DNA from: Candidatus Saccharimonadota bacterium | GTDB taxonomy: Bacteria; Bacteroidota; Bacteroidia; Cytophagales; Amoebophilaceae | Length of the DNA: 32,000 nt | Assembly (NCBI RefSeq): GCF_003351905.1 | Contig: NZ_CP022339.1 | Location: 630,001 to 662,000 of the forward strand | Direction of reading: 5' to 3' | In this document: positions 426 through 12,860 of the stretch, one piece after another | Position numbering within the stretch: position 1 is the first letter of the stretch | How the letters are laid out: every line of letters begins with the position of its first letter | The notes under the pieces: generated by a model | What the model was told of the DNA's origin: nothing | Seen by the model: only the letters and a program-made list of their open reading frames with translations | Databases searched by the model: none | Position numbers and translations under genes: made by a program

Positions 426-1637
426 ATGGAACATGGACGCATTTTTATATTGTGGTTACTCCTATTAAGTGGTTGCCATACGGACATTAAGCAGGATGTG
501 CATCCTGGGGATCCCTCTTTTGTTGCGGGTCCCATGTATCTTACGCATGCTTCTGGTGCTGCTGATTTTGATTCTTCTGTTGCTTCTGCTTTTATGACTG
601 CTGCGGCTGCTCGTGTGGATGCGGCTGATGCGGATGCGGCTGCTCGTGCTGCGGCTGCTCGTGCCAATACTGCTCTTGCGCGTGCTTTCCCTCTTGATGG
701 TGGTACGCCTGTTCGGGCTACTATTTCTGGGTCTGCTGTTTTTGCTTGTACTAATGCTGCCGCTGCTTATATGCGTGTTGCTGCATCTGCTGCTGCAGCA
801 GCAGATGCGTATCTAGTTGCTGCGCGTGCTGCGTATGATGTTGGCCATCCGGTTGCTTATGCCCATGCTTCTGGCTATGCTGATGCATATACTTGTACTT
901 CTGTTTCTGCTTTGACTGCTGCGGCGTCTTTTGATGCTGCTGCTAAGGCTGCTGCTGTTTCGCATGTGGTTGCTGCTAAGGCTGCTGTTGCTGTTTCGCA
1001 TGCCGGTGATCATGCTGCTGTTTTTGCTGCTGCTGCTAGGGCTGCTGCTACTAAGGCTGCTACCTATGCTACTTCTGTGGCTCGTTCTGCTAATTTGTCT
1101 ACTACAGTTGGCTGTATACGTATGGTTTCTGCTCATGTTGCTTCTATTGCTTCTGCTGCCCGTGCTGCTCATACGGCTCGTGTTGAGGCTGATTCTGCAA
1201 CTCATTCTGCAGATTGTGCTAGGGTTTATGCATATACTGCTCATGCTGCTGTTTCTGCTGCTGCTGCTATTTGTGCACATGCTGATGCTGTGTTTGCGAC
1301 TACTGATGCTGTATTTGCTTATGACCGTGTGGTTGAGGTTGCTGATGCACATATTAATAATGCACGTAAAATTGCTTCTATTAGGGTCCATAATGATACG
1401 GCTTCTGCTGCTTATGAGCGTGCCAGTTCTGCTTCTGTTGATGCTGCTACTGCTGCTGCTGGAGCTACTAAAGCAGCAGCAGCAGTGAGTCGTTTTGCTG
1501 CTGTAGCTGATGTTTCGTCTGTTGAGTCTTCTGTTTCGGATCTATTTGCTGCTGCTGCTCGTGCTGCTGCTGTTGTTGTTGACGCTATTCGTCTGCATGC
1601 TGCTACTGCTGCGAATGCTGTTGCTGCTGCCATATAA
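426..1637 (+). CDS. Alanine-rich predicted lipoprotein, unknown function (paralog 1)
   Basis: The N-terminus MEHGRIFILWLLLLSGC has a hydrophobic core and a canonical lipobox (L-S-G-C). The mature part is dominated by A with S/V/D/H/T/Y/R and has almost no K/E/I/N/L/P. Codons are overwhelmingly T-ending (gct, tct, gtt, gat, cat, act, tat, cgt). It is paralogous to 1906..2616, including the 5' leader. Confidence 0.7.
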   Translation: MEHGRIFILWLLLLSGCHTDIKQDVHPGDPSFVAGPMYLTHASGAADFDSSVASAFMTAAAARVDAADADAAARAAAARANTALARAFPLDGGTPVRATISGSAVFACTNAAAAYMRVAASAAAAADAYLVAARAAYDVGHPVAYAHASGYADAYTCTSVSALTAAASFDAAAKAAAVSHVVAAKAAVAVSHAGDHAAVFAAAARAAATKAATYATSVARSANLSTTVGCIRMVSAHVASIASAARAAHTARVEADSATHSADCARVYAYTAHAAVSAAAAICAHADAVFATTDAVFAYDRVVEVADAHINNARKIASIRVHNDTASAAYERASSASVDAATAAAGATKAAAAVSRFAAVADVSSVESSVSDLFAAAARAAAVVVDAIRLHAATAANAVAAAI

Positions 1638-1905: not shown

Positions 1906-2616
1906 ATGGAACATAAAAAAGTTTTTGTACTGTGGTTATTAACGTTAGGTGGATGTAATGCGCTGGTGAAGCACCATATGCATGCTGTAAGTGAATCCTG
2001 TGTTACAACCACCCATACTCCGCATCATGGTGTGCCTTGTATGCGCCATGTTTCTTCTGGTTTTGTTTCTGGTTCTTCTTCCGCTTCTGCTCCGTTCTCT
2101 TCTTTGTCTTTGTCTGAAGTTTTTGGTCGTGCTTATCGTAATGCTTGCGACTTGTATGCTGCTAGTCGTGCTACTGTTTTGACGTGTTGTCCTGCTATTG
2201 AGTCTGTTGGTTATGCTAGTGATGATGTGTGTCATTTTGCTACTGCTGCACGTTCTGTTGCTAAGGCGGCTGCTTGCGCTGCTGCTGATGTGCGTTATTA
2301 TGCTGCGGCTGCTTGGGCTATTGTTGATCATGTAGTTGCTGTTCGTCGTGCGCCTATGGCTCGTGCGCGCTATATTGCTTTGGTGAAAGTTTTATTTGGT
2401 AAGATGACGGTTTTGGTTCGTTCTGCTAAGGCTGCTGCTGATGCTGCTACTGATGCTGCTAAGACTGTTGCTGATATAGCAGCTTCTGCTTTTGCTCTGG
2501 CTGCTGCTGATGTGGTTCGTGATTTTGCTTCGGCTGCTGCGTGTTCTGCTGCTGCTGCGCAGCGTTATGCGGCTCATACTGTTGCTGCAGCACGTTTTGC
2601 TGCTGCTATTGCATAA
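1906..2616 (+). CDS. Alanine-rich predicted lipoprotein, unknown function (paralog 2)
   Basis: The N-terminus MEHKKVFVLWLLTLGGC has a lipobox (L-G-G-C). A His/Cys-rich stretch is followed by an Ala-rich body with the same NNT codon style as 426..1637. The leader at 1861-1905 resembles 387-425. Confidence 0.7.
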   Translation: MEHKKVFVLWLLTLGGCNALVKHHMHAVSESCVTTTHTPHHGVPCMRHVSSGFVSGSSSASAPFSSLSLSEVFGRAYRNACDLYAASRATVLTCCPAIESVGYASDDVCHFATAARSVAKAAACAAADVRYYAAAAWAIVDHVVAVRRAPMARARYIALVKVLFGKMTVLVRSAKAAADAATDAAKTVADIAASAFALAAADVVRDFASAAACSAAAAQRYAAHTVAAARFAAAIA

Positions 2617-3481: not shown

Positions 3482-4042
3482 ATGTTGCATCATTGCACTA
3501 GTACTATATTATCTGAAGTAAACCAATACATTCAATCTAAAACGAATGTAAAGGGGCCAGCTATATCCCTGTCAATTTTAGGAAATTCCCAAATAGAAAG
3601 CAAATATTCCAAGGGAATTTTTATGAGGTTGGTAGATATTGCTTCAGTAGAACTGCGCAGCAACCCTACGCAATATGTGCCACAGGGGGATGGTTTTGTT
3701 TTACGTAAAGTACCAGAAGCATTTAGCCTTTATTTCTTATTTTCTACAGATTATAAGGCAGCCGACTTATTAAAAAATTTAGAATTACTTGCTTATGTGG
3801 CAGCATTTTTTCAACATAAGTCGCATTTTGATGTTGCTAACACCCCTGTTTTACAGGAGATTGGGATTGACAGTTTTTCAGTTGAGTTAGTAAAGATGGC
3901 GCCATCGGAGCGGTCCATGCTTTGGAAAAGTTTACATACGCCTTATAGTCCTTCTTTGCTCTATAAGGTAGGTCTTATATTTATAGGAGATGCTGCGATG
4001 GATTTAAAGGTAGTATCCGCATTTTCATCACGTGAGCGGTAA
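3482..4042 (+). CDS. CIS cap / tail-terminator-like protein (DUF4255, Afp16/Pvc16 N-terminal domain family)
   Basis: FMRLVDIASVELRSNPTQYVPQGDGFVLRKVPEAFSLYFLFS and SMLWKSLHTPYSPSLLYKVGLIFI line up with the DUF4255 signature as I recall it from Pvc16 (..LYDI.ENVELRSNEP....G......PPL.....YLVTA ... EFW.AL....RPSL...V). It lies in a same-strand block with the sheath and tube genes. Confidence 0.75.
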   Translation: MLHHCTSTILSEVNQYIQSKTNVKGPAISLSILGNSQIESKYSKGIFMRLVDIASVELRSNPTQYVPQGDGFVLRKVPEAFSLYFLFSTDYKAADLLKNLELLAYVAAFFQHKSHFDVANTPVLQEIGIDSFSVELVKMAPSERSMLWKSLHTPYSPSLLYKVGLIFIGDAAMDLKVVSAFSSRER

Positions 4043-4938: not shown

Positions 4939-6426
4939 ATGGCTGAAAATTTAAAAACTCCCGGCGTGTACATCGTCGAGAAGGATACGGGTGCCAACGC
5001 CGTGGTTCAAGTATCAACCGCAGTTCCTGCTTTTATAGGCTTCACAGAAAGAGCTGAAATTAATGGAAAGTCGTTTCATATGAAACCTGTTCAGATTTCT
5101 TCGCTTTCTGAATTTGAGTTGTTTTTTGGTGGACCAGCAGTACCTGTCTATACCATTAAGGAGGTAACCAGTGGAGACAAAGATTTGGTGATGAATGGCA
5201 AGTCTTATGTCATGGAACAGAGTCTAAATTCTACATTTTATCTATATAATAGTTTAAAGCTATTTTTTGATAATGGTGGAGCAGATTGTTTTATTGTCTC
5301 TGTTGGTCAGTATGGTGACCCAAATGTACAGTTAGCAATTACACCAGATGTATTTAAACAAGGTATAGATGCCTTAGCTGGAGAGGAGGTGCCTACCATG
5401 TTGTTAATGCCAGATTCACTCTTATTAGACGAGGAAGATGCCTCTTACTATGCGGTGCAGACCTATGGACTGGCCCATTGTGGTAAGTATCTGAATAAAG
5501 TAGCATTATTTGATATATGGGGTGGTAATAAGGAATTATCTATCGAGGATAAGAACAAATATGTAGATAGGTTTCGTGAATATATTGGATTAGATAATTT
5601 GAGTTATGGTGCTGCCTATTATCCATGGGTTAAAACCAATATTATCCCATTGAATAGCATTGATTACAAAAACTTCGATTTAGAGTCGCTCAAAGGTGTA
5701 TTACAAGAAGAACACAAAACCATGTTGGCCAATCTAATCAGTGCTACTACAGAGAAAGAGAAAGTCTATTGGGATGCTGGGCTAAAGAATACCAGTAAGG
5801 AGTACAAATTACTGCGTAAAACCATTGCCGATCGGTTGAATATTCTTCCAGCTGCTCCGGCTATGGCTGGGTTGTATACTAGAACCGATAAAGCAAGAGG
5901 GGTATGGATTGCGCCGGCCAACCAAAACTTAAATTCTGTGGTAGAGCCCATGGTTAAGATTACCCATGAAGAACAAGAAGCACTGAACGTAGATGGCATT
6001 AGTGGCAAGTCGATCAATGCCATTCGGACCTTTAAAGGAGCCGGTGCAGCAGTCGTTTGGGGTGCCAGAACTTTGGCAGGAAATAGTCCAGAATGGCGGT
6101 ATATTAACGTTAGGAGGTTGTTTATCCTTATTGAGCAATCGATTAAAAATGCAGCTTTTTCCGTTGTCTTTAGGCCAAACGTTCCCGTTACCTGGGCAGT
6201 TGTACAGGGCATGATTTCCAACTTCTTAACCAACCTTTGGAGACAAGGTGCTTTGGTAGGGGCAAGTCCTGCAGAGGCATTTACCGTCCTTTGTGGATTA
6301 GGTGAGACCATGTCTCAGGATGATGTGAATGAAGGCATTATGCGCATTTCCGTAAAAGTGGCAGCGCCTAGACCAGCTGAGTTTATTGTGATCACATTTG
6401 AACAAAAAATGGGTGCAGATGGTTAA
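4939..6426 (+). CDS. Contractile sheath protein (phage tail sheath / Afp2-4 / TssBC-like)
   Basis: The N-terminus MAENLKTPGVYIVEKDTG..VSTAVPAFIGFTERA is the classic sheath start (TPGVYIEE...S.avaafvG). The C-terminal block GVWIAPAN..L..V......T..EQ..LN..G...INAIR.F.G.G..VWGARTL....EWRYINVRRLF..IE.SI is the tail-sheath C-terminal domain pattern. Confidence 0.95.
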   Translation: MAENLKTPGVYIVEKDTGANAVVQVSTAVPAFIGFTERAEINGKSFHMKPVQISSLSEFELFFGGPAVPVYTIKEVTSGDKDLVMNGKSYVMEQSLNSTFYLYNSLKLFFDNGGADCFIVSVGQYGDPNVQLAITPDVFKQGIDALAGEEVPTMLLMPDSLLLDEEDASYYAVQTYGLAHCGKYLNKVALFDIWGGNKELSIEDKNKYVDRFREYIGLDNLSYGAAYYPWVKTNIIPLNSIDYKNFDLESLKGVLQEEHKTMLANLISATTEKEKVYWDAGLKNTSKEYKLLRKTIADRLNILPAAPAMAGLYTRTDKARGVWIAPANQNLNSVVEPMVKITHEEQEALNVDGISGKSINAIRTFKGAGAAVVWGARTLAGNSPEWRYINVRRLFILIEQSIKNAAFSVVFRPNVPVTWAVVQGMISNFLTNLWRQGALVGASPAEAFTVLCGLGETMSQDDVNEGIMRISVKVAAPRPAEFIVITFEQKMGADG

Positions 6427-7535: not shown

Positions 7536-7985
7536 ATGGTTGATTTTAATTTAGTCCATACCTATTCTTTTCAAGTAGAAGTACAGAAAGTAACAGATAA
7601 TAGTTCCCGAGAATATTTCTATAAGGTAGAAGGGTTAAATAATGCTTTGCGTATGGAGCCTTATCTACCTGGAGGGGCGAATAGACCTTATTATAGGGCT
7701 AATGCATGTGAAACGACTGATTTAATCTTGACGAGGCCCTTAGTAGAGGGGAAAACCAAAATAACCGTTTGGTGCGAAAAGGCCATTGACACAGGATTTT
7801 TTGAACTTACGCGAGCCCATATTTTTGTGCTTAGTAGGGAAGGTAAAATTCTGGCACGATGGGATATAGAAGATGTCTATCCAAAGGGTATAGCCATTAC
7901 ACCATTCCAGTTAAATGGTCCAACAGAATTTGGGGTAGGAGAAACCATTACACTGGGCTATTCTAGGTTGGTGCGTGCCAAATGA
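7536..7985 (+). CDS. CIS inner tube protein (phage T4 gp19-like / Afp1-Afp5 family)
   Basis: YSFQVEV....FYKVEGLNNALRMEPYLPGGANRPYYRANACETTDLILTRPLVEG...WCEKAID....AHIFVLSREGKILARWDIEDVYPKGIAITPFQLNG...VGETITLGYS follows the tail-tube consensus (F.V.I....F..VSGL..E.ev.EYreGG.n...hKlPG...y.nlTLkRG......l..W........I.LlD..g.....W....AwP.k.....L.a.....v.iE.lel.he). Confidence 0.85.
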   Translation: MVDFNLVHTYSFQVEVQKVTDNSSREYFYKVEGLNNALRMEPYLPGGANRPYYRANACETTDLILTRPLVEGKTKITVWCEKAIDTGFFELTRAHIFVLSREGKILARWDIEDVYPKGIAITPFQLNGPTEFGVGETITLGYSRLVRAK

Positions 7986-8157: not shown

Positions 8158-8328
8158 ATGGCAGTTAAAATTAATGAATTCGTGATTCAGTTTAAGGTGC
8201 ATGAAGCCAGTCAACCAGTAGAAAACACGACCAATAAGCCAGTTGGTTACTTACCGGATAGGACGGAGCAGCAAGATTTGGTAAGGGAGGTGGTTGACGC
8301 ATTATTAGAAGATCGAGAAGCAAGGTAA
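8158..8328 (+). CDS. Small Afp6/Pvc6-like protein (DUF5908-like). This ORF is not in the supplied track.
   Basis: I translated it by hand: ATG at 8158 to TAA at 8326-8328 gives the 56-aa MAVKINEFVIQFKVHEASQPVENTTNKPVGYLPDRTEQQDLVREVVDALLEDREAR. The start M.(I/V)(K/E)I.E(L/F).I...V, the polar middle and the acidic helical end ...L(E/K)..(K/R)ER resemble the small protein found between tube and Afp7 genes in eCIS loci. Its position matches, ending 14 nt before the Afp7-like gene. Confidence 0.55.
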   Translation: MAVKINEFVIQFKVHEASQPVENTTNKPVGYLPDRTEQQDLVREVVDALLEDREAR

Positions 8329-8342
8329 AACAACCTCCAGGT

Positions 8343-9665
8343 ATGAGTAACGTTAGTAAACTAGTTATTAAAGCATGTAGGGACAATAAGTTTTCTTCTT
8401 TTATAGGGGAATTTATTACATCTATTAATCCAGAGAACTTGGTTATTAAAAGTGCTGTATCCTACCATATTCCTGGAGGAACTCCTCCTAGTGCCCATTT
8501 GCTTAAATACCGTGGATCCCCTCCTAAGTTGCTTTCTTTTAGTCTTTTATTTGACAATACAGGGATTATGCCTGGTAGCAATACCATTGCTGTGATGGAG
8601 CAAGTCAAGCAACTACAAGATGTTGCCTATAGCGTCCAGAAAAAAAATAATGCCCCGAATTACATTCGTGTAATCTGGGGGCAGATTGATTTTAAAGGAA
8701 GATTGGTGGATCTAGATATGATCTATTCTATGTTTCAAGTAGATGGTACGCTGGTTAGAGCCGAGGCACATATCGCTGTATTGGAGGAGCTGGTCCCTGT
8801 AGGGAGAGGGGAATCTGCTGCAGGTGTAGATAGCGACTATGCAAAAGCATCGGGTGCAAGTGCAACCTCGAAGGGTTCATCTAGTCAAAGGGGTGGCCCC
8901 CCGCCCTCTTATCAGGAGGCCACTGCGCCCCCTCCTTCTTATCAGGCAGCTGTTGCTGCACCGCATCAGGAGGCCTTTGCACCTACCCCTAATGGGATGA
9001 ATGGCGCCTACAGTGGTGCACCACCGGGTGCCTATGATGGAGGGGCTGACCAGATTTATCATGGATCTAATGATGCTGGTGGAGCGGTTTATGCCTCGTC
9101 CAGTGTGGCTACGGCTCAGTCTGGCAAGCCTATTTCCAGTGTAAAGCCGGTCTCCTCTAGCCATGGTGGCTATAGTAATGATGCTGATATTGGCCGTTCT
9201 AGTAACGGCTTACAAGGTGGTGTGGCGGGCAATGGCCCTGGAGGGAGTGGAGGAGGAGTTGGCGGGGGAGGTCATGGACCAGGTAGTGGGAAGGCTGGCA
9301 AGGCTACTACTGGAATAGGTAGCCCTGAAGGTAAAGCTGGTACAAGTGGTAGTAGCCATGGATCAGGCAGTTCTCCGACTGGATCTGCCAAAAGCAATAC
9401 GGCCTCAGGGAGTGGTAAAGTCAAAGGAAAAGATAGTAACTTTAAGGCGGGTAGCATGGTAGCTGCTGGTGCAGCTGGTAGTGCGGCAGTAGCAGCTGCT
9501 GCTGCAACTGGAGCAGATAGTTTGCGTAAAATTGATCTAAAGGGTAAGGGCCTCAATTTTTTAAGAAATAAAGTGAGTTGGCGGGATAGGCTCAAAATGA
9601 TTGTTAAATTTGTTAAAAAACAAGCAGGAAAAGCATATAATGCCGGAAAAAAGATGGTACAGTAA
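8343..9665 (+). CDS. CIS tube-initiator-like protein (Afp7/Pvc7 N-terminal tube domain) fused to a long low-complexity tail, with no LysM domain
   Basis: The N-terminal ~155 aa (KLVIKACRDNKFSSFIGEFITSINPENL...SFSLLFDNTGIMPG...NYIRVIWGQIDFKGRLVDLDMIYSMFQVDGTLVRAEAHIAV) match the CIS tube protein N-domain pattern (KL.I.A....F...vgeF.vm.NPE.ys......y....f.LvFDgTGv.p......P.fl.l.WG.l.FkcrL.sl.i.YtLF..dGtPlRA.a.v.f). Residues ~160-400 are G/S/A/P-rich. The C-terminus is an Ala/Gly hydrophobic stretch followed by a Lys/Arg-rich helix. Confidence 0.8.
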   Translation: MSNVSKLVIKACRDNKFSSFIGEFITSINPENLVIKSAVSYHIPGGTPPSAHLLKYRGSPPKLLSFSLLFDNTGIMPGSNTIAVMEQVKQLQDVAYSVQKKNNAPNYIRVIWGQIDFKGRLVDLDMIYSMFQVDGTLVRAEAHIAVLEELVPVGRGESAAGVDSDYAKASGASATSKGSSSQRGGPPPSYQEATAPPPSYQAAVAAPHQEAFAPTPNGMNGAYSGAPPGAYDGGADQIYHGSNDAGGAVYASSSVATAQSGKPISSVKPVSSSHGGYSNDADIGRSSNGLQGGVAGNGPGGSGGGVGGGGHGPGSGKAGKATTGIGSPEGKAGTSGSSHGSGSSPTGSAKSNTASGSGKVKGKDSNFKAGSMVAAGAAGSAAVAAAAATGADSLRKIDLKGKGLNFLRNKVSWRDRLKMIVKFVKKQAGKAYNAGKKMVQ

Positions 9666-9801: not shown

Positions 9802-11259
9802 ATGCGTTATATGAAATCTGTTGTTGTAGCTGTTTTTTTAACAGCTTGTGGGCATTTTATTGCTTATGGTAACACCAAACTTAAATCCAGTGTCATTGAG
9901 CATGCCAAGCGTGCGGTAGTTTCTCTTGATGTGCAGGCAGCCCTTACGGCCTATACTGCGCCTGGGAAGTTGCATGGAAATGGGGTAGTAATAGATAAAA
10001 AAATAGGCTATATTTTAACTTCTGCTACTACGGTTGGTCCCGCTATAGTAGCAGACTATACGGTTGGTTTTTTTAATGGTGTAGAGGCTAAAGCGAAAGT
10101 AGTTTATTATGATCCTTGGTTGGACTATGCGATTCTAAAGGTAGATCCATTGGTGCTTCCTAAAGAAATCCAGGCGATCAAGTTAAGTAGTAAGGAACCA
10201 TTGCTAGGCCAGTCTATTTTTACGATTGGTAAGAAAAAAAATACGCCTGCTGTAGTATATGCTGGAACCATAGATGCTACCAATTGTAGTGTGCAATGGA
10301 CCATGCCCCAACATTTTATTCGTGTGAGTATGCCCAGTAAGACTCATGCAGTTGGTTCTTTAATTTTCAATGAGGCTGGGGAGGGTATTGCTTTAAATTG
10401 TGCGGGTTCAGATACCGCGAATATTGGGTTGCATCTAGGCTATGTGCGTCAGGCGCTAGCTGCCTTAAAGCAAAACAAATTACCAGTTAGAAAGCATATC
10501 GGTGCGTTACTAGTTACTTATTCCATAGATGATGCCATCCGTTATGATCATCTTTCGCAAGCTTCACAAAAAGTGTATACTGCAAAATTTCCAAATGCAG
10601 AAAATAAAATCTTGCAAGTAGATAGTATACTTAAAGGTACACCAGCAGCGGGTAAACTTTTGCCTGGGGATTTAATTTGGGCGCTTAATGGTCAGTTGAT
10701 TGGCCCTAATCTCATAGATTTTGATATAGCGCTGGATAAATCACCAAAAGATTCAGTTTTGTTAACTGTTTTTCGAAATGGTTCCTTTCATGAGGTTGCT
10801 ATTCCTTGTTATAATTTACACAACCATCGGATCACTAAAATGGTTCAATTTGGCGGTGCTACTTTTTTTGAGACAGATGATTTTTGTAGTACGCTGGGTG
10901 GTGTTTCCCCTAAAACTTTGGCTGCTTGTATTGCAGAAACCAATACCATTTTCAAAGTACCTGCTTCGCATCAAAATTATTTCAATATTTTAGGCATGCA
11001 ATTTTTAGCTATTAATGGTAAGCCTGTGCAAACATTGGATGCGTTGATCACACTGATTCCAGAATTGGTTCATCAAAAATATTTTACAGTTTCCTATGTT
11101 AATCACTTGGTGCCATTAAATCATGGCATGTGGTCATCCTATGCGCATAGTTCCTATAAAGTGAATGTAGCATATGACTCCAACTTAGTATTGCCCAAAG
11201 TTTGGACATGGGATTCCATGCAGCTGGAATGGAAAGGTGAGGCAATTGTTTTGCAATAG
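9802..11259 (+). CDS. Secreted trypsin-fold/PDZ protein of the HtrA type, predicted catalytically dead (pseudoprotease), probable lipoprotein
   Basis: It aligns end to end with the 11409..12860 product and has the same 485-aa length. The His site reads GYILTSATTVGP (10021-10035) against GYILTNQHVIGD. The Ser site reads KTHAVGSLIFN (10345-10362) against KGGSSGSPIFN. The Asp context DPWLDYAILKV is kept. The N-terminus VVVAVFLTAC has a lipobox (L-T-A-C). Confidence 0.8.
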   Translation: MRYMKSVVVAVFLTACGHFIAYGNTKLKSSVIEHAKRAVVSLDVQAALTAYTAPGKLHGNGVVIDKKIGYILTSATTVGPAIVADYTVGFFNGVEAKAKVVYYDPWLDYAILKVDPLVLPKEIQAIKLSSKEPLLGQSIFTIGKKKNTPAVVYAGTIDATNCSVQWTMPQHFIRVSMPSKTHAVGSLIFNEAGEGIALNCAGSDTANIGLHLGYVRQALAALKQNKLPVRKHIGALLVTYSIDDAIRYDHLSQASQKVYTAKFPNAENKILQVDSILKGTPAAGKLLPGDLIWALNGQLIGPNLIDFDIALDKSPKDSVLLTVFRNGSFHEVAIPCYNLHNHRITKMVQFGGATFFETDDFCSTLGGVSPKTLAACIAETNTIFKVPASHQNYFNILGMQFLAINGKPVQTLDALITLIPELVHQKYFTVSYVNHLVPLNHGMWSSYAHSSYKVNVAYDSNLVLPKVWTWDSMQLEWKGEAIVLQ

Positions 11260-11408
11260 GGCTGGAGTTGCTTGCGTTATCCCATCCTATATGGAAGTTT
11301 TTAGAAGTGTGAAAGCCAAAAATCCATATTTAATCCTATCATCTTTTATGCTTTTTTTGCCTTAATGATTTGATCAGGTTGTTCTAATCGCTATTTACTA
11401 CAGTGCGT

Positions 11409-12860
11409 ATGAAAATAAATAGGTTAAAATCTAAATGCTGGATTCTATTTTTTACCCTTTTGCTGCATACGCCTATGCTTTTAGCCAAAGAGGTCTTCTC
11501 TGAAAAGGTAATTGAGCATGCTAAAAAGTCAGTAGTAACCATTGATGTAAATGCTGCTTTTGCAGCTTATGGAGAAGGTAGCAAGTGGAGCGGAACCGGT
11601 TGCGTGGTAGATAAGCAGCATGGCTACATCTTAACCAACCAACATGTAATAGGCGATGCTGTAGTGGGTAGTTATAAAGCAACCTTTTTTAATGGCATCC
11701 AACAAGAAGCCCATCTGATCTATTACGATCCATGGTTAGACTATGGATTTGTAAAAGTTTCCCCTACCGTTATTCCAAAAGAGGTTACGGAAACTACCTT
11801 TAGTAGCCATAATCCAGTTATAGATCAGCCTATTTTTATCGTTGGCAATAATGAAGGCTATAGCTTTTCTTTACATACAGGAGTGGTGGCAGATTTGTAT
11901 GGGGTTACAGGTGCCATGCCTCAACAATCGATTAAACTGAGTTTAAATACTAAGGGTGGGTCAAGTGGATCGCCCATTTTTAACAAAAATGGGCAGGCTG
12001 TAGGGCTTAATTATGCTGGCAATCGAACATTCGGGTTTGCTATCCATCCTGAATATATTCGGTATGCTTTGTCAGCGATTCGGCAAGGTAACTCCCCAAT
12101 TAGGAAACAAGTGGGCGTAATCACCAAATCTACACCTATTAAAGATGTAGTCCAGTATGATGGGTTATCCACCCAGCAGCAATACATTAAAACATTTCCT
12201 AATGGCGCTACTTCTGTTATTACAGTCCATCATGTGTTAGTTGGTAGTCCTGCGGCTGCCTTACTCTTTCCTGGAGATGTGATTTGGGCCATTAATGGTC
12301 ACCCAATAGGGCCTAATTTGGTTGCTTTCTATATGGCTATGAACAAAACTACGAAAGATTCTGTTCTATTAACCATTTTTAGGATGGGCCAGTGGCATGA
12401 TATCAAAATAGGGCTTTATGATCTCGAGGCGCATAAAATCACAAAAATGGTCCATTTTGGAGGGGCGCTTTTTTTTGAAATGGATGATTATTGTGCCAAA
12501 CTAAATCATTTATCTCCTAAAAGTTTGACTTTTGTGCATGTAGATGCAAACCATATGTTTCATAATGTTGCACCCAATAGAGTCGGTGAATTTAGGTTGA
12601 AAGTCTTATCTTTTAATAAAAAATCGGTTGCTGACCTTCAAGCATTAGTGGCAGTGATACCATCGTTAATCTCTAAAAAATACTTTACTATAGAATATAC
12701 TGATTTGTCTCCTTGTCATCTATTTGGTTCTGCGTTACACTTAGGTCCTAGGCCATCAAGGGCCTATGTAGCGTATGATACCCATCTTTCTCAGCCTAGA
12801 TCATTTATTTGGGATGAAGCAAGTCATCAATGGATTAGTTCACCTATTGGTATAAAATGA
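11409..12860 (+). CDS. Secreted HtrA-family (S1C-like) serine protease with C-terminal PDZ-like region, catalytic triad intact
   Basis: TNQHV (His codon 11643-11645), DPWLDYGFVKV (Asp) and GGSSGSP (Ser codon 11964-11966) are all present. The signal peptide is KCWILFFTLLLHTPMLLA/KE. The track starts at GTG 11403, but I prefer ATG 11409. Confidence 0.85.
   Translation: MKINRLKSKCWILFFTLLLHTPMLLAKEVFSEKVIEHAKKSVVTIDVNAAFAAYGEGSKWSGTGCVVDKQHGYILTNQHVIGDAVVGSYKATFFNGIQQEAHLIYYDPWLDYGFVKVSPTVIPKEVTETTFSSHNPVIDQPIFIVGNNEGYSFSLHTGVVADLYGVTGAMPQQSIKLSLNTKGGSSGSPIFNKNGQAVGLNYAGNRTFGFAIHPEYIRYALSAIRQGNSPIRKQVGVITKSTPIKDVVQYDGLSTQQQYIKTFPNGATSVITVHHVLVGSPAAALLFPGDVIWAINGHPIGPNLVAFYMAMNKTTKDSVLLTIFRMGQWHDIKIGLYDLEAHKITKMVHFGGALFFEMDDYCAKLNHLSPKSLTFVHVDANHMFHNVAPNRVGEFRLKVLSFNKKSVADLQALVAVIPSLISKKYFTIEYTDLSPCHLFGSALHLGPRPSRAYVAYDTHLSQPRSFIWDEASHQWISSPIGIK

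What the first reader, a model, noticed from the sequence alone, without database searches (positions are those of the whole stretch)
8820..9665. Afp7-like tube initiator has swapped its LysM domain for a ~280-aa disordered tail with two PPSY motifs and a hydrophobic/basic C-terminus
The N-terminal ~155 aa look like the conserved CIS tube-initiator domain, which in Afp7/Pvc7-type proteins is followed by a LysM domain. Here it is followed by a G/S/A/P-rich low-complexity region. That region contains GGPPPSYQEATAPPPSYQ, giving two PPxY motifs at nt 8901-8912 and 8931-8942. Next comes an Ala/Gly hydrophobic stretch (MVAAGAAGSAAVAAAAATGA, ~9456-9515), then a Lys/Arg-rich amphipathic end (LRNKVSWRDRLKMIVKFVKKQAGKAYNAGKKMVQ). 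PPxY is the ligand of eukaryotic WW domains such as Nedd4-family ubiquitin ligases. I see two non-exclusive hypotheses. First, this could be a specialised tube/baseplate component carrying a host-directed short linear motif, analogous to evolved VgrG/Hcp. Second, the linker plus C-terminal helix could tether the baseplate to the membrane in a system that lacks TssJLM-type anchors.
Basis: partly seen in the sequence, partly recalled or inferred. Interest (0 to 1): 0.75.

Follow-up and report, generated by a model that had tools for sequence, protein, structure and literature searches.

The report
Injection-system tube initiator with tethered tail
This gene encodes the ring protein that starts the inner tube of a symbiont's phage-tail-like injection machine; its long floppy tail is a stretched linker with a decayed LysM domain and a conserved basic end-helix, and its two "PPSY" host-like motifs are a recent local duplication, not a family feature.

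Summary
ORF 8343-9665 (440 aa, Cardinium endosymbiont of Sogatella furcifera) has an Afp7/Cis7-type tube-initiator domain (aa 4-148). A 285-aa G/S/A/P-rich tail follows, with PPSY at nt 8901-8912 and 8931-8942, an Ala-rich stretch and a basic C-terminal helix. No LysM domain is detectable.

The tail is not a swap. A discrete clade of roughly 38 clusters (50% identity), spanning Cardinium, Amoebophilus and relatives, carries a 120-250-aa variable linker. The Amoebophilus-type members still have a LysM after that linker, then a hydrophobic helix and a polybasic tail. Cardinium keeps only the C-terminal part of this module (hhalign E 1e-4).

The PPSY pair is a 10-aa tandem duplication confined to one subclade. 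PPxY occurs in 3 of 35 homologs and in a fourth, frameshifted gene (cDfar), about what composition predicts. The Ala-rich stretch is not conserved as hydrophobic.

Three elements are conserved:
- the amphipathic basic C-terminal helix;
- island 1, FAPTPNG..GAYSGAP.GAYDGGPD.VYHG (dN/dS 0.09-0.19);
- island 2, GGVAGNGPGGSGGGVGGGGH (dN/dS about 0).

The islands occur only where LysM is lost.

Most likely the tail is a leash carrying an attachment module for the baseplate or inner membrane. It is a new variant of a known protein, of moderate interest.

The parts
8343..9665 (+). Complete gene for the Afp7/Cis7-type tube initiator (440 aa plus stop) of the Cardinium T6SSiv/Afp-like contractile injection system
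   Evidence: ORF list. 100% identical to the NCBI cSfur protein. Best solved relatives are all Cis7-type: Alg7 7aeb_M E 1e-31, All3321 7b5h_AK, Pvc7 6j0n_b, Afp7 6rao_G.
8352..8786 (+). Tube beta-barrel domain (aa 4-148), the conserved core
   Evidence: Pfam PF19266 E 1.6e-31. AF2 pLDDT about 90 with strands up to aa 148. dN/dS 0.07-0.11, computed over aa 1-153.
8898..8957 (+). Tandem duplication of a 10-aa unit (PPPSYQEATA / PPPSYQAAVA) that carries the two PPSY motifs (nt 8901-8912 and 8931-8942). Specific to one lineage.
   Evidence: 22/30 nt identical between the units. Alignment columns are 82-89% gaps. The cTP ortholog keeps only the first PPSY, and cDfar reads APPSY...APSAY.
8976..9062 (+). 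Conserved island 1 (aa 212-240, FAPTPNGMNGAYSGAPPGAYDGGADQIYH), with Tyr every 8 residues. Partner unknown.
   Evidence: Column conservation 0.80-0.91, as high as the tube domain. dN/dS 0.09-0.19. AF2 pLDDT about 60 against below 50 in the surroundings. Present only in homologs without LysM (34 vs 80, none with both).
9216..9275 (+). Conserved island 2 (aa 292-311, GGVAGNGPGGSGGGVGGGGH), a Gly-rich motif under very strong purifying selection
   Evidence: dN = 0-0.02 with dS 0.26-2.7 in three pairwise comparisons. Conservation 0.78.
9456..9530 (+). Ala-rich stretch (aa 372-391) plus DSLRK (aa 392-396). Probable eroded remnant of the second LysM helix and the NGLDSLR motif.
   Evidence: MAFFT aligns it to ...LNGLDSLR... 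of LysM-bearing relatives. hhalign of the Cardinium C-terminus against the LysM-clade module gives E 9.9e-5, prob 58%. It is not conserved as hydrophobic.
9549..9662 (+). C-terminal basic amphipathic helices (aa 403-440). Family consensus K.SFW.RLK.FAKKV.PKAY.AGKK.
   Evidence: AF2 helices at 403-410 and 413-439, pLDDT about 75. Conserved in Cardinium-type homologs, with the AY.AGKK and SWWQRLK motifs also found in LysM-bearing relatives P0128, P0103 and P0126. Net charge of the last 40 aa has a median of +10. Hydrophobic moment 0.65-0.86.
8158..8328 (+). Context: Afp6/Cis6-like spike plug (DUF5908), the gene immediately upstream
   Evidence: Pfam PF19265 E 4.4e-6. Alg6 is described as the spike plug in PMC8894135.
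7536..7985 (+). Context: Afp5/Cis5-like tube initiator layer (gp19-like)
   Evidence: Pfam PF06841 E 4.3e-12.
4939..6426 (+). Context: contractile sheath protein
   Evidence: Pfam Phage_sheath_1C and Phage_sheath_1.
3482..4042 (+). Context: Pvc16/Afp16-like cap protein, the first gene of this module
   Evidence: Pfam PF14065 E 2.2e-17.

Best explanation
The gene encodes the Cis7/Afp7 tube initiator of the membrane-anchored, phage-tail-like T6SSiv of Cardinium. This is the hexameric ring between the spike and the inner tube.

In canonical systems this protein is about 220-230 aa: a tube barrel, a roughly 15-aa linker and a LysM domain. The LysM 'glues' the hub to the wedge proteins Cis9 and Cis12.

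In the Amoebophilaceae-type clade the linker has expanded to 120-250 aa of variable low-complexity sequence. A new element was also added after the LysM: a hydrophobic or amphipathic helix followed by a polybasic tail.

In the Cardinium branch the LysM itself has eroded to an Ala-rich stretch plus DSLRK. Two short, strongly constrained linear motifs (islands 1 and 2) appeared in the linker, and the C-terminal basic amphipathic helix was kept.

I infer that the tail is a flexible leash carrying an attachment module. The islands take over the LysM's contact with the baseplate. The six C-terminal amphipathic polybasic helices per particle bind a negatively charged surface at a distance from the hub. 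That surface is most likely the anionic inner membrane to which this TssJLM-less machine must be fixed.

The two PPSY motifs are a recent tandem duplication in one subclade and are not part of the conserved mechanism.

Shown here: the identity of the protein, the clade-wide architecture, the LysM in sister lineages, the conservation pattern, and the non-conservation of PPxY. Inferred only: what the islands and the helix bind.
For: Identity:
- CIS_tube domain E 1.6e-31.
- The best solved relatives are all Cis7-type proteins of 217-234 aa.
- Operon order is cap, sheath, tube, Afp5, Afp6, then this gene. In Amoebophilus sp. the next gene is VgrG.

Clade-wide architecture:
- phmmer of the barrel against 1.84 billion representatives splits the hits in two.
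- Hits at 37% identity or more are nearly all 290-616 aa.
- Hits at 35% identity or less are mostly 210-250 aa; the shorter entries look like fragments.

LysM behind the long linker in the sister lineages:
- Pfam LysM scores are 21.2, 17.4, 17.2 and 14.8 bits.
- Profiles A2 and A5 hit the LysM of Alg7 and All3321 at E 4.5e-5 to 1e-3.

Homology of the Cardinium C-terminus:
- hhalign against that module gives E 9.9e-5 over 51 columns.
- The motifs KAYDAGKK and SWWQRLK are shared with the LysM-bearing proteins P0128 and P0126.

Linker is free in length and composition:
- One population with at least 98% identical barrels ranges from 354 to 464 aa, setting aside one 274-aa entry.
- Linker composition varies between lineages.
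- dN/dS in the variable stretches is 0.5-0.85.

Constrained elements:
- Island 1 has dN/dS 0.09-0.19 and island 2 about 0.
- Island 1 and LysM are mutually exclusive: 34 vs 80 homologs, none with both.

The C-terminal helix:
- AF2 predicts helices at pLDDT about 75.
- Hydrophobic moment is 0.65-0.86, against 0.78 for the FtsA membrane-targeting helix computed the same way. The FtsA sequence was taken from memory.
- The last 40 aa carry a net charge of about +9 to +14 in all three subgroups.

Literature:
- The LysM of Cis7/Alg7 binds the wedge proteins Cis9 and Cis12, and the Alg7 linker is cleaved (PMC8894135 and PMC8894136).
- T6SSiv lacks TssJLM (PMC10433429).
- T6SSiv is held on the membrane by six feet-like densities; no assignment of them was found in the papers read here (PMC11566945).
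Against: - No experiment or structure places the tail anywhere.
- In LysM-bearing relatives the hydrophobic helix follows the LysM with no spacer. If the LysM sits at its canonical site inside the baseplate, the helix would be several nanometres from the membrane.
- C-terminal helices of tube initiators that bind wedge proteins electrostatically are known (P2 gpU). A protein partner is therefore at least as conventional as a lipid one.
- Homology of the Cardinium C-terminus to the LysM module is only moderately supported. hhalign probability is 58%, and plain HMM scores are at decoy level.
- AF2 did not fold the LysM region of P0095 confidently (pLDDT 41-45).
- The cSfur C-terminus itself is more diverged than in other Cardinium (dN/dS 0.5-0.9).
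- The island/LysM complementarity reflects essentially one evolutionary event.
Confidence: 0.55

Rival explanations
1. Pure baseplate glue. The C-terminal basic helix, with or without islands 1 and 2, binds acidic surfaces of the wedge or sheath-initiator proteins. It would simply replace the eroded LysM. The long linker would be tolerated slack with no membrane role.
For: - The canonical role of the Cis7 LysM is to bind Cis9 and Cis12 and the peripheral wedges.
- The P2 tube initiator gpU has a C-terminal helix that contacts the wedge triplex electrostatically.
- The P2 LysM glue protein gpX has a C-terminal extension that contacts the triplex or the hub.
- Pyocin R2 and phage 812 initiators also have helical C-terminal extensions.
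- In LysM-bearing relatives the helix follows the LysM directly.
Against: - A contact at the canonical site needs only about 15 linker residues. Yet every full-length-looking member of the clade seen here keeps more than 120, and the length is free to vary.
- The polybasic tails reach 100-200 aa in some members and give weak Phasin and YtxH-like hits. Those families are amphipathic helices that coat lipid surfaces.
Confidence: 0.3
2. Host-directed short linear motifs. The initiator ring travels with the spike and tube into the host cytoplasm, and the PPSY pair recruits WW-domain proteins such as Nedd4-family ligases. The protein would then be an 'evolved' structural component.
For: - Two PPSY motifs lie in an accessible disordered region.
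- The first PPSY is kept in the subclade cSfur / cTP / cDfar. A PPSY arose again at the homologous site in P0026.
- In contractile systems the initiator is part of the hub that moves with the tube. This is general knowledge and was not tested here.
Against: - PPxY is absent from 32 of 35 homologs and from all LysM-bearing relatives.
- It lies in an insertion that most orthologs lack.
- The pair is a single duplication event.
- About 0.68 PPxY-bearing tails are expected by composition among 31. Two independent origins have a Poisson probability of about 0.15 (my arithmetic).
- The second unit has already decayed in cTP (PPTSY) and cDfar (APSAY).
- The segment containing the motifs (aa 154-211) has an unremarkable dN/dS of 0.36.
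- There is no evidence that the tail leaves the bacterium.
Confidence: 0.07
3. Decaying remnant. In a reduced endosymbiont genome the LysM was lost, and the tail is mostly functionless low-complexity sequence drifting under relaxed selection.
For: - The variable stretches have dN/dS 0.5-0.85.
- The linker gains and loses repeats freely.
- The cDfar copy is frameshifted at a G8 run.
Against: - The reading frame is kept open over 350-490 aa in nearly all of the roughly 119 clade members seen.
- Islands 1 and 2 are as constrained as the structural domain.
- The C-terminal helix and its motifs are conserved between Cardinium-type and LysM-bearing lineages.
Confidence: 0.08

Closest known systems
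Alg7 of AlgoCIS (PDB 7AEB chain M), All3321/Cis7 of the Anabaena tCIS (7B5H), Pvc7 (6J0N) and Afp7 (6RAO): Cis7-type tube initiators
   Same: The N-terminal tube barrel is homologous (E 1e-31 to 1e-15). The gene sits at the same operon position, after the Afp5 and Afp6 homologs. The sister clade keeps an orthologous LysM.
   Different: The canonical proteins are 217-234 aa with a linker of about 15 aa and end at the LysM. Here the linker is about 220 aa, LysM is undetectable, two new constrained motifs are present, and a basic amphipathic helix lies beyond the LysM position.
Amoebophilus-type Cis7 (e.g. Candidatus Amoebophilus sp. 36-38, L011 6001-7125; P0095, P0092)
   Same: Same clade, about 50% identical barrel, long variable linker, and a C-terminal helix with a polybasic tail.
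   Different: These proteins retain a recognisable LysM and a strongly hydrophobic post-LysM helix (Kyte-Doolittle 19-residue mean 2.0-2.6). They lack islands 1 and 2 and have no PPxY.
C-terminal extensions of phage and tailocin hub proteins: P2 gpU helix, P2 gpX (LysM glue with extension), pyocin R2 ripcord, phage 812 initiator 'handle'
   Same: Each is a helical C-terminal element of a tube initiator or LysM glue protein that contacts the wedge and stabilises the pre-firing baseplate.
   Different: No sequence similarity was tested or found. Those extensions are short and directly attached, not carried on a disordered leash of more than 200 aa.
C-terminal amphipathic membrane-targeting helices of FtsA and MinD
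   Same: C-terminal position, basic amphipathic character, Trp/Phe on the apolar face, and a comparable hydrophobic moment (reference sequences from memory).
   Different: The resemblance is physicochemical only. There is no homology, and membrane binding was not tested.
Class I WW-domain ligands (PPxY late domains of viral matrix proteins and Nedd4 adaptors)
   Same: The motif sequence PPSY occurs twice in a disordered region.
   Different: The motif is not conserved among orthologs, its exposure to the host is unknown, and it arose by a local duplication.

Membership tests
Cis7/Afp7-type tube initiator (contractile injection systems) | N-terminal tube beta-barrel domain (Pfam CIS_tube PF19266) homologous to solved Cis7 proteins | tested here: met
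   PF19266 E 1.6e-31 over aa 4-148. Profile hits to 7aeb_M, 7b5h_AK, 6j0n_b and 6rao_G. AF2 barrel at pLDDT about 90.
Cis7/Afp7-type tube initiator (contractile injection systems) | Gene position after the Afp5 (gp19-like) and Afp6 (DUF5908) homologs and before the VgrG spike | tested here: met
   The upstream order is met in the window. VgrG is not adjacent here: two HtrA-like genes follow instead. VgrG does follow directly in the Amoebophilus sp. ortholog locus L011.
Cis7/Afp7-type tube initiator (contractile injection systems) | C-terminal LysM domain that binds the wedge | tested here: not met
   No Pfam LysM hit at E<=1 for this protein or for any Cardinium-type homolog. AF2 shows no beta-alpha-alpha-beta fold. 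A clade-specific LysM HMM scores below 10 bits. Only a vestige is suggested (hhalign E 9.9e-5).
Cis7/Afp7-type tube initiator (contractile injection systems) | Forms a hexameric ring between VgrG and the Afp5 ring or the tube in the particle | not testable with these tools
   This needs cryo-EM of particles or multimer modelling.
LysM domain (PF01476) | A module of about 44 aa with the signature h.V..GDTL..IA ... N.L ... L..Gq.L.iP | tested here: not met
   Absent in P0001. Present in the sister clade: P0095 scores 21.2 bits, at or above the gathering score of 20.9.
Class I WW-domain ligand (PPxY) | PPxY motif in an accessible, disordered region | tested here: met
   PPSY at aa 187-190 and 197-200, in a region with pLDDT below 50.
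Class I WW-domain ligand (PPxY) | Evolutionary conservation of the motif among orthologs | tested here: not met
   Found in 3 of 35 homologs plus the frameshifted cDfar gene. The motif lies in columns that are 82-89% gaps. About 0.68 tails with PPxY are expected by chance.
Class I WW-domain ligand (PPxY) | Co-localisation with, and binding to, host WW-domain proteins | not testable with these tools
   This needs pull-down or yeast two-hybrid assays and localisation of the tail in host cells.
C-terminal amphipathic membrane-targeting helix (FtsA/MinD type) | C-terminal, conserved, basic amphipathic helix | tested here: met
   AF2 helices at 403-439. Hydrophobic moment 0.65-0.86. Net charge about +10. 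Conserved consensus K.SFW.RLK.FAKKV.
C-terminal amphipathic membrane-targeting helix (FtsA/MinD type) | Binds anionic phospholipid membranes | not testable with these tools
   This needs GFP-fusion localisation or liposome binding assays.
Transmembrane anchor | A hydrophobic segment of about 19 aa or more, conserved among orthologs, with a compatible topology | tested here: not met
   The Ala-rich stretch has a Kyte-Doolittle mean of 1.44. Ortholog values range from 0.02 to 1.86, and the segment contains Arg or is polar in several orthologs. In the sister clade a single membrane span would place a polybasic tail of up to 200 aa outside the cell (inference).
Evolved (specialised) VgrG/Hcp-type structural effector | A folded effector domain fused to the structural core | tested here: not met
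   No Pfam or NCBIfam domain is found in the tail. AF2 shows no fold apart from the terminal helices.

The most novel reading that the evidence does not exclude
The whole tail leaves the bacterium with the spike and tube, and acts in the host cytoplasm as a six-copy display of host-directed linear motifs. Island 1 (three Tyr at 8-residue spacing) and island 2 would be the conserved host-binding elements. The PPSY units would be a lineage-specific addition that recruits WW-domain ligases. A core structural protein of the injection machine would then double as an effector.
Probability: 0.07. Interest if true: 0.85.

Novelty: new variant of a known kind. Interest (0 to 1): 0.45.

Why it matters
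How the T6SSiv machines of Amoebophilus and Cardinium are fixed to the inner membrane without TssJLM is unresolved. These machines form the 'microfilament-like' arrays that characterise Cardinium. Only six unassigned feet-like densities have been described.

The analysis identifies a clade-specific element present in six copies per particle: a leash plus a polybasic hydrophobic or amphipathic helix on the tube initiator. This gives a concrete, testable candidate for the anchor, or for a new kind of hub-to-wedge link.

It also shows LysM being replaced stepwise by short linear motifs in a phage-derived machine.

Finally, it removes a tempting but unsupported story: PPxY mimicry of host ubiquitin-ligase ligands.

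Tried and rejected
- blastn of the gene against plasmids found no match.
- hhalign of the Cardinium C-terminus against the first, narrow LysM-clade alignment A2 aligned only 13 columns (E 0.0025, prob 12%).
- Plain hmmsearch in both directions scored at decoy level. Only the broader profile A5 gave a usable signal.
- AF2 of the LysM-bearing P0095 did not fold the LysM region confidently (pLDDT 41-45). The LysM call therefore rests on sequence profiles alone.
- A regex scan of the window and 15 loci found the island and C-terminal motifs only in Afp7 orthologs.
- Bock et al. 2017, the primary T6SSiv paper, is not held. The anchoring description is second-hand, from PMC11566945 and PMC10433429.
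- Literature searches for Aasi_1079 and for Cardinium with Afp7 returned nothing.
- Rejected: the Ala-rich stretch as a transmembrane segment, because it is neither hydrophobic enough nor conserved.
- Rejected: the tail lying in the tube lumen. In solved Cis7 structures the C-terminus leaves from the outside of the ring towards the wedges.
- Rejected: the minus-strand ORFs 8877-9164 and 9272-9595 as genes. They lie antisense within this conserved coding region; no separate test was run on them.
- TRF found only short, weak repeats in the tail DNA and did not report the 30-nt duplication.
Full report
WHAT IS THERE

The window comes from the Cardinium endosymbiont of the planthopper Sogatella furcifera. 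The 440-aa product of ORF 8343-9665 (+) is 100% identical to an NCBI protein of that organism.

The gene closes a module of a phage-tail-like contractile injection system:
- Pvc16-like cap, 3482-4042
- an unassigned 283-aa gene
- sheath, 4939-6426
- two small genes without Pfam hits
- gp19/Afp5-like tube protein, 7536-7985
- DUF5908/Afp6-like plug, 8158-8328
- this gene

Every coordinate in the finding reproduces:
- PPSY at aa 187-190 and 197-200 (nt 8901-8912 and 8931-8942)
- the Ala-rich stretch at aa 372-391
- the basic end at aa 407-440

Pfam places a CIS_tube domain at aa 4-148 (E 1.6e-31). A profile of the family hits only Cis7-type tube initiators among solved structures: Alg7 7aeb_M E 1e-31, All3321 7b5h_AK, Pvc7 and Afp7. 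All of them are 217-234 aa.

The tail is 56% G/S/A/P. AlphaFold2 gives mostly pLDDT below 50 from aa 154 to 404, and two terminal helices (aa 403-410 and 413-439) at about 75. No LysM is detectable.

The NCBI name 'afp12-like' is a misnomer: the protein is Afp7/Cis7-like.

THE PPSY PAIR

The two motifs are the two units of one tandem duplication, PPPSYQEATA / PPPSYQAAVA, with 22 of 30 nt identical.

In an alignment of 35 homologs the duplication lies in columns that are 82-89% gaps. PPxY occurs in these places only:
- cSfur (this window)
- its 82%-identical relative from Tyrophagus mites. The first unit is kept; the second reads PPTSY.
- the Dermatophagoides strain. There the gene is broken by a frameshift at a G8 run, and the shifted frame reads DAPPSYNEAVGAPSAYKET.
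- P0026, independently (LPPSYEES)

The motif sits just upstream of a conserved island, in a context that reads (P)PS-QE-AF in most orthologs. A single change is enough to create PPSY there.

Composition alone predicts 0.68 PPxY-bearing tails among 31. Two origins are unremarkable, with a Poisson probability of about 0.15 by my arithmetic.

A function limited to one lineage cannot be excluded, but nothing supports it.

THE TAIL IS AN EXPANDED LINKER, NOT A SWAP

I ran phmmer with the barrel alone against 1.84 billion representative proteins. The result is sharply bimodal:
- Hits of 37% identity or more (about 38 clusters) are nearly all 290-616 aa.
- Hits of 35% identity or less are mostly 210-250 aa, the canonical size; the shorter entries look like fragments.

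The long-tail clade includes Cardinium, other Amoebophilaceae and Candidatus Amoebophilus sp. 36-38. In the Amoebophilus locus the gene (374 aa) is followed directly by VgrG.

In the non-Cardinium members the architecture is:
- barrel
- hypervariable linker. It is A/G-rich, E/K/N-rich or S/T-rich depending on lineage.
- LysM
- hydrophobic helix (FSLAALLAALLAK; Kyte-Doolittle 19-residue mean 2.0-2.6)
- a polybasic tail of 30-200 aa

The LysM is supported in two ways. Pfam gives 21.2 bits for P0095 at a gathering score of 20.9, and sub-threshold full-length matches in P0094, P0032 and P0093. Profile hits land on exactly the LysM domains of the solved Cis7 proteins, Alg7 residues 173-222 and All3321 residues 178-227, at E 4.5e-5 to 1e-3. 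AF2 did not fold this region confidently, so the evidence is from sequence only.

Linker length is free to vary. One metagenomic population with barrels at least 98% identical ranges from 354 to 464 aa through repeat indels, setting aside one 274-aa entry.

WHAT CARDINIUM KEPT

A profile-profile comparison was run between the Cardinium C-terminal 60-95 aa and the broad LysM-plus-helix module. It aligns 51 columns (E 9.9e-5, probability 58%):
- (A)DSLRK aligns to NGLDSLR of the second LysM half.
- K-lSfWqRLK aligns to P-lSl-ALL of the post-LysM helix.
- The two basic ends align with each other.

Exact shared motifs back this up. KAYDAGKK occurs in P0128, and SWWQRLK occurs in the LysM-bearing P0126. 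A narrower profile and plain HMM searches were at noise level, so I rate this homology as probable, not proven.

It is not conserved as hydrophobic: orthologs there contain Arg, or read SSSAKSKSAELKAAKSSS.

Three things are conserved in Cardinium-type proteins:
1. The C-terminal amphipathic basic helix. The consensus is K.SFW.RLK.FAKKV.PKAY.AGKK. Its hydrophobic moment is 0.65-0.86 and its net charge about +10.
2. Island 1, aa 212-240, FAPTPNGMNGAYSGAPPGAYDGGADQIYH, with Tyr every eight residues.
3. Island 2, aa 292-311, GGVAGNGPGGSGGGVGGGGH.

Nei-Gojobori dN/dS against three other Cardinium:
- tube domain, 0.07-0.11
- island 1, 0.09-0.19
- island 2, 0-0.01, despite dS of 0.26-2.7
- the stretches in between, 0.5-0.85

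Island 1 and a detectable LysM are mutually exclusive across 119 clade members: 34 with island 1 only, 80 with LysM only, 5 with neither and none with both. This is essentially one evolutionary event, but it fits replacement of the LysM contact by linear motifs.

HOW IT MOST LIKELY WORKS

The established facts come from the literature:
- In solved systems the Cis7 LysM ties the hub and tube to the wedge proteins Cis9 and Cis12 (PMC8894136; PMC8894135).
- In AlgoCIS the short barrel-LysM linker is found cleaved.
- T6SSiv lacks TssJLM and ClpV and forms arrays (PMC10433429).
- Cardinium has no other classical effector secretion system. Its 'microfilament-like' arrays are thought to be this machine (PMC3486910, PMC12342168).

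My inference has two steps. First, a contact at the canonical LysM site needs only about 15 linker residues, yet the whole clade maintains more than 120 residues of freely evolving linker. The C-terminal module therefore probably acts at a distance from the ring, or must stay attached while the ring moves. Second, a C-terminal hydrophobic or amphipathic helix followed by a polybasic tail, in six copies, is the classical design of a peripheral anchor to anionic membranes. The comparison with FtsA and MinD rests on my own knowledge.

I therefore favour a leash-plus-anchor model. The islands (or the LysM in the sister clade) hold the baseplate, and the terminal helix binds the inner membrane.

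The main rival is that the helix binds wedge proteins electrostatically. The P2 gpU helix, the gpX extension, the pyocin R2 ripcord and the phage 812 handle all work this way. Its strongest argument is that the hydrophobic helix follows the LysM without a spacer in the sister clade.

I give the membrane version about 0.4 and the wedge-only version about 0.3. The 0.55 in the Best explanation section covers the identity and evolutionary account together with this mechanism. The host-motif and junk-remnant readings get less than 0.1 each.

COMPARISON AND NOVELTY

The protein is a member of the Cis7/Afp7 family by its barrel and its gene position. It fails the LysM criterion, so it is best filed as a divergent architectural variant.

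The clade-wide combination of long linker, post-LysM helix and polybasic tail did not turn up in any paper I could search. Neither did the Cardinium-specific erosion of LysM with gain of two constrained motifs.

It is a new variant of a known kind, not a new system. Its value is as a testable candidate for the unknown T6SSiv anchor. The PPxY feature that motivated the high first-stage score is most likely incidental.

Noticed in passing
window 426-1637 and 1906-2616 (+): Two paralogous, extremely Ala-rich ORFs with lipoprotein-like N-termini (LLLLSGCH and LLTLGGCN). They have no Pfam hit. The region has a strong AT skew of -0.28 to -0.38.
   Followed up: partly
window 9802-11259 and 11403-12860 (+): Tandem HtrA/DegP-like (Trypsin_2 + PDZ) paralogs directly downstream of the Afp7 gene, where Amoebophilus sp. 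has VgrG. The Cardinium of Dermatophagoides (L013) has the same arrangement.
   Followed up: partly
window 18044-20941 and 21025-21136 (+): 23S and 5S rRNA genes with thymidylate synthase (16895-17689, minus strand) upstream. No 16S gene is adjacent, so the rRNA operon appears to be split.
   Followed up: no
window 21280-23271 (+): A 663-aa leucine-rich-repeat (LRR_6/RNI-like, E 6e-77) protein immediately after the 5S rRNA. It is a eukaryote-like candidate host-interaction protein.
   Followed up: no
L013 3001-4277 (Cardinium of Dermatophagoides farinae): The Afp7 ortholog is split into 209-aa and 216-aa ORFs by a frameshift at a G8 homopolymer, just before the PPSY region. This could be a sequencing error, a pseudogene or slippage.
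   Followed up: partly
window 9216-9275 (aa 292-311): The Gly-rich 20-mer GGVAGNGPGGSGGGVGGGGH shows essentially no non-synonymous change among Cardinium strains, although synonymous sites are near saturation. The reason is unknown.
   Followed up: partly
P0033-P0091 (ENA metagenomes; e.g. L015 8001-9302): A population of near-identical Cis7 genes (barrel at least 98% identical) whose linkers differ by up to 110 aa through E/K/N-rich repeat indels. The host genome looks reduced, and infB follows the gene.
   Followed up: partly
P0114 (616 aa): An apparent fusion of the Afp6-like plug, Cis7 and about 190 aa of downstream sequence into one predicted protein. It may be a read-through or a gene-calling artefact.
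   Followed up: no
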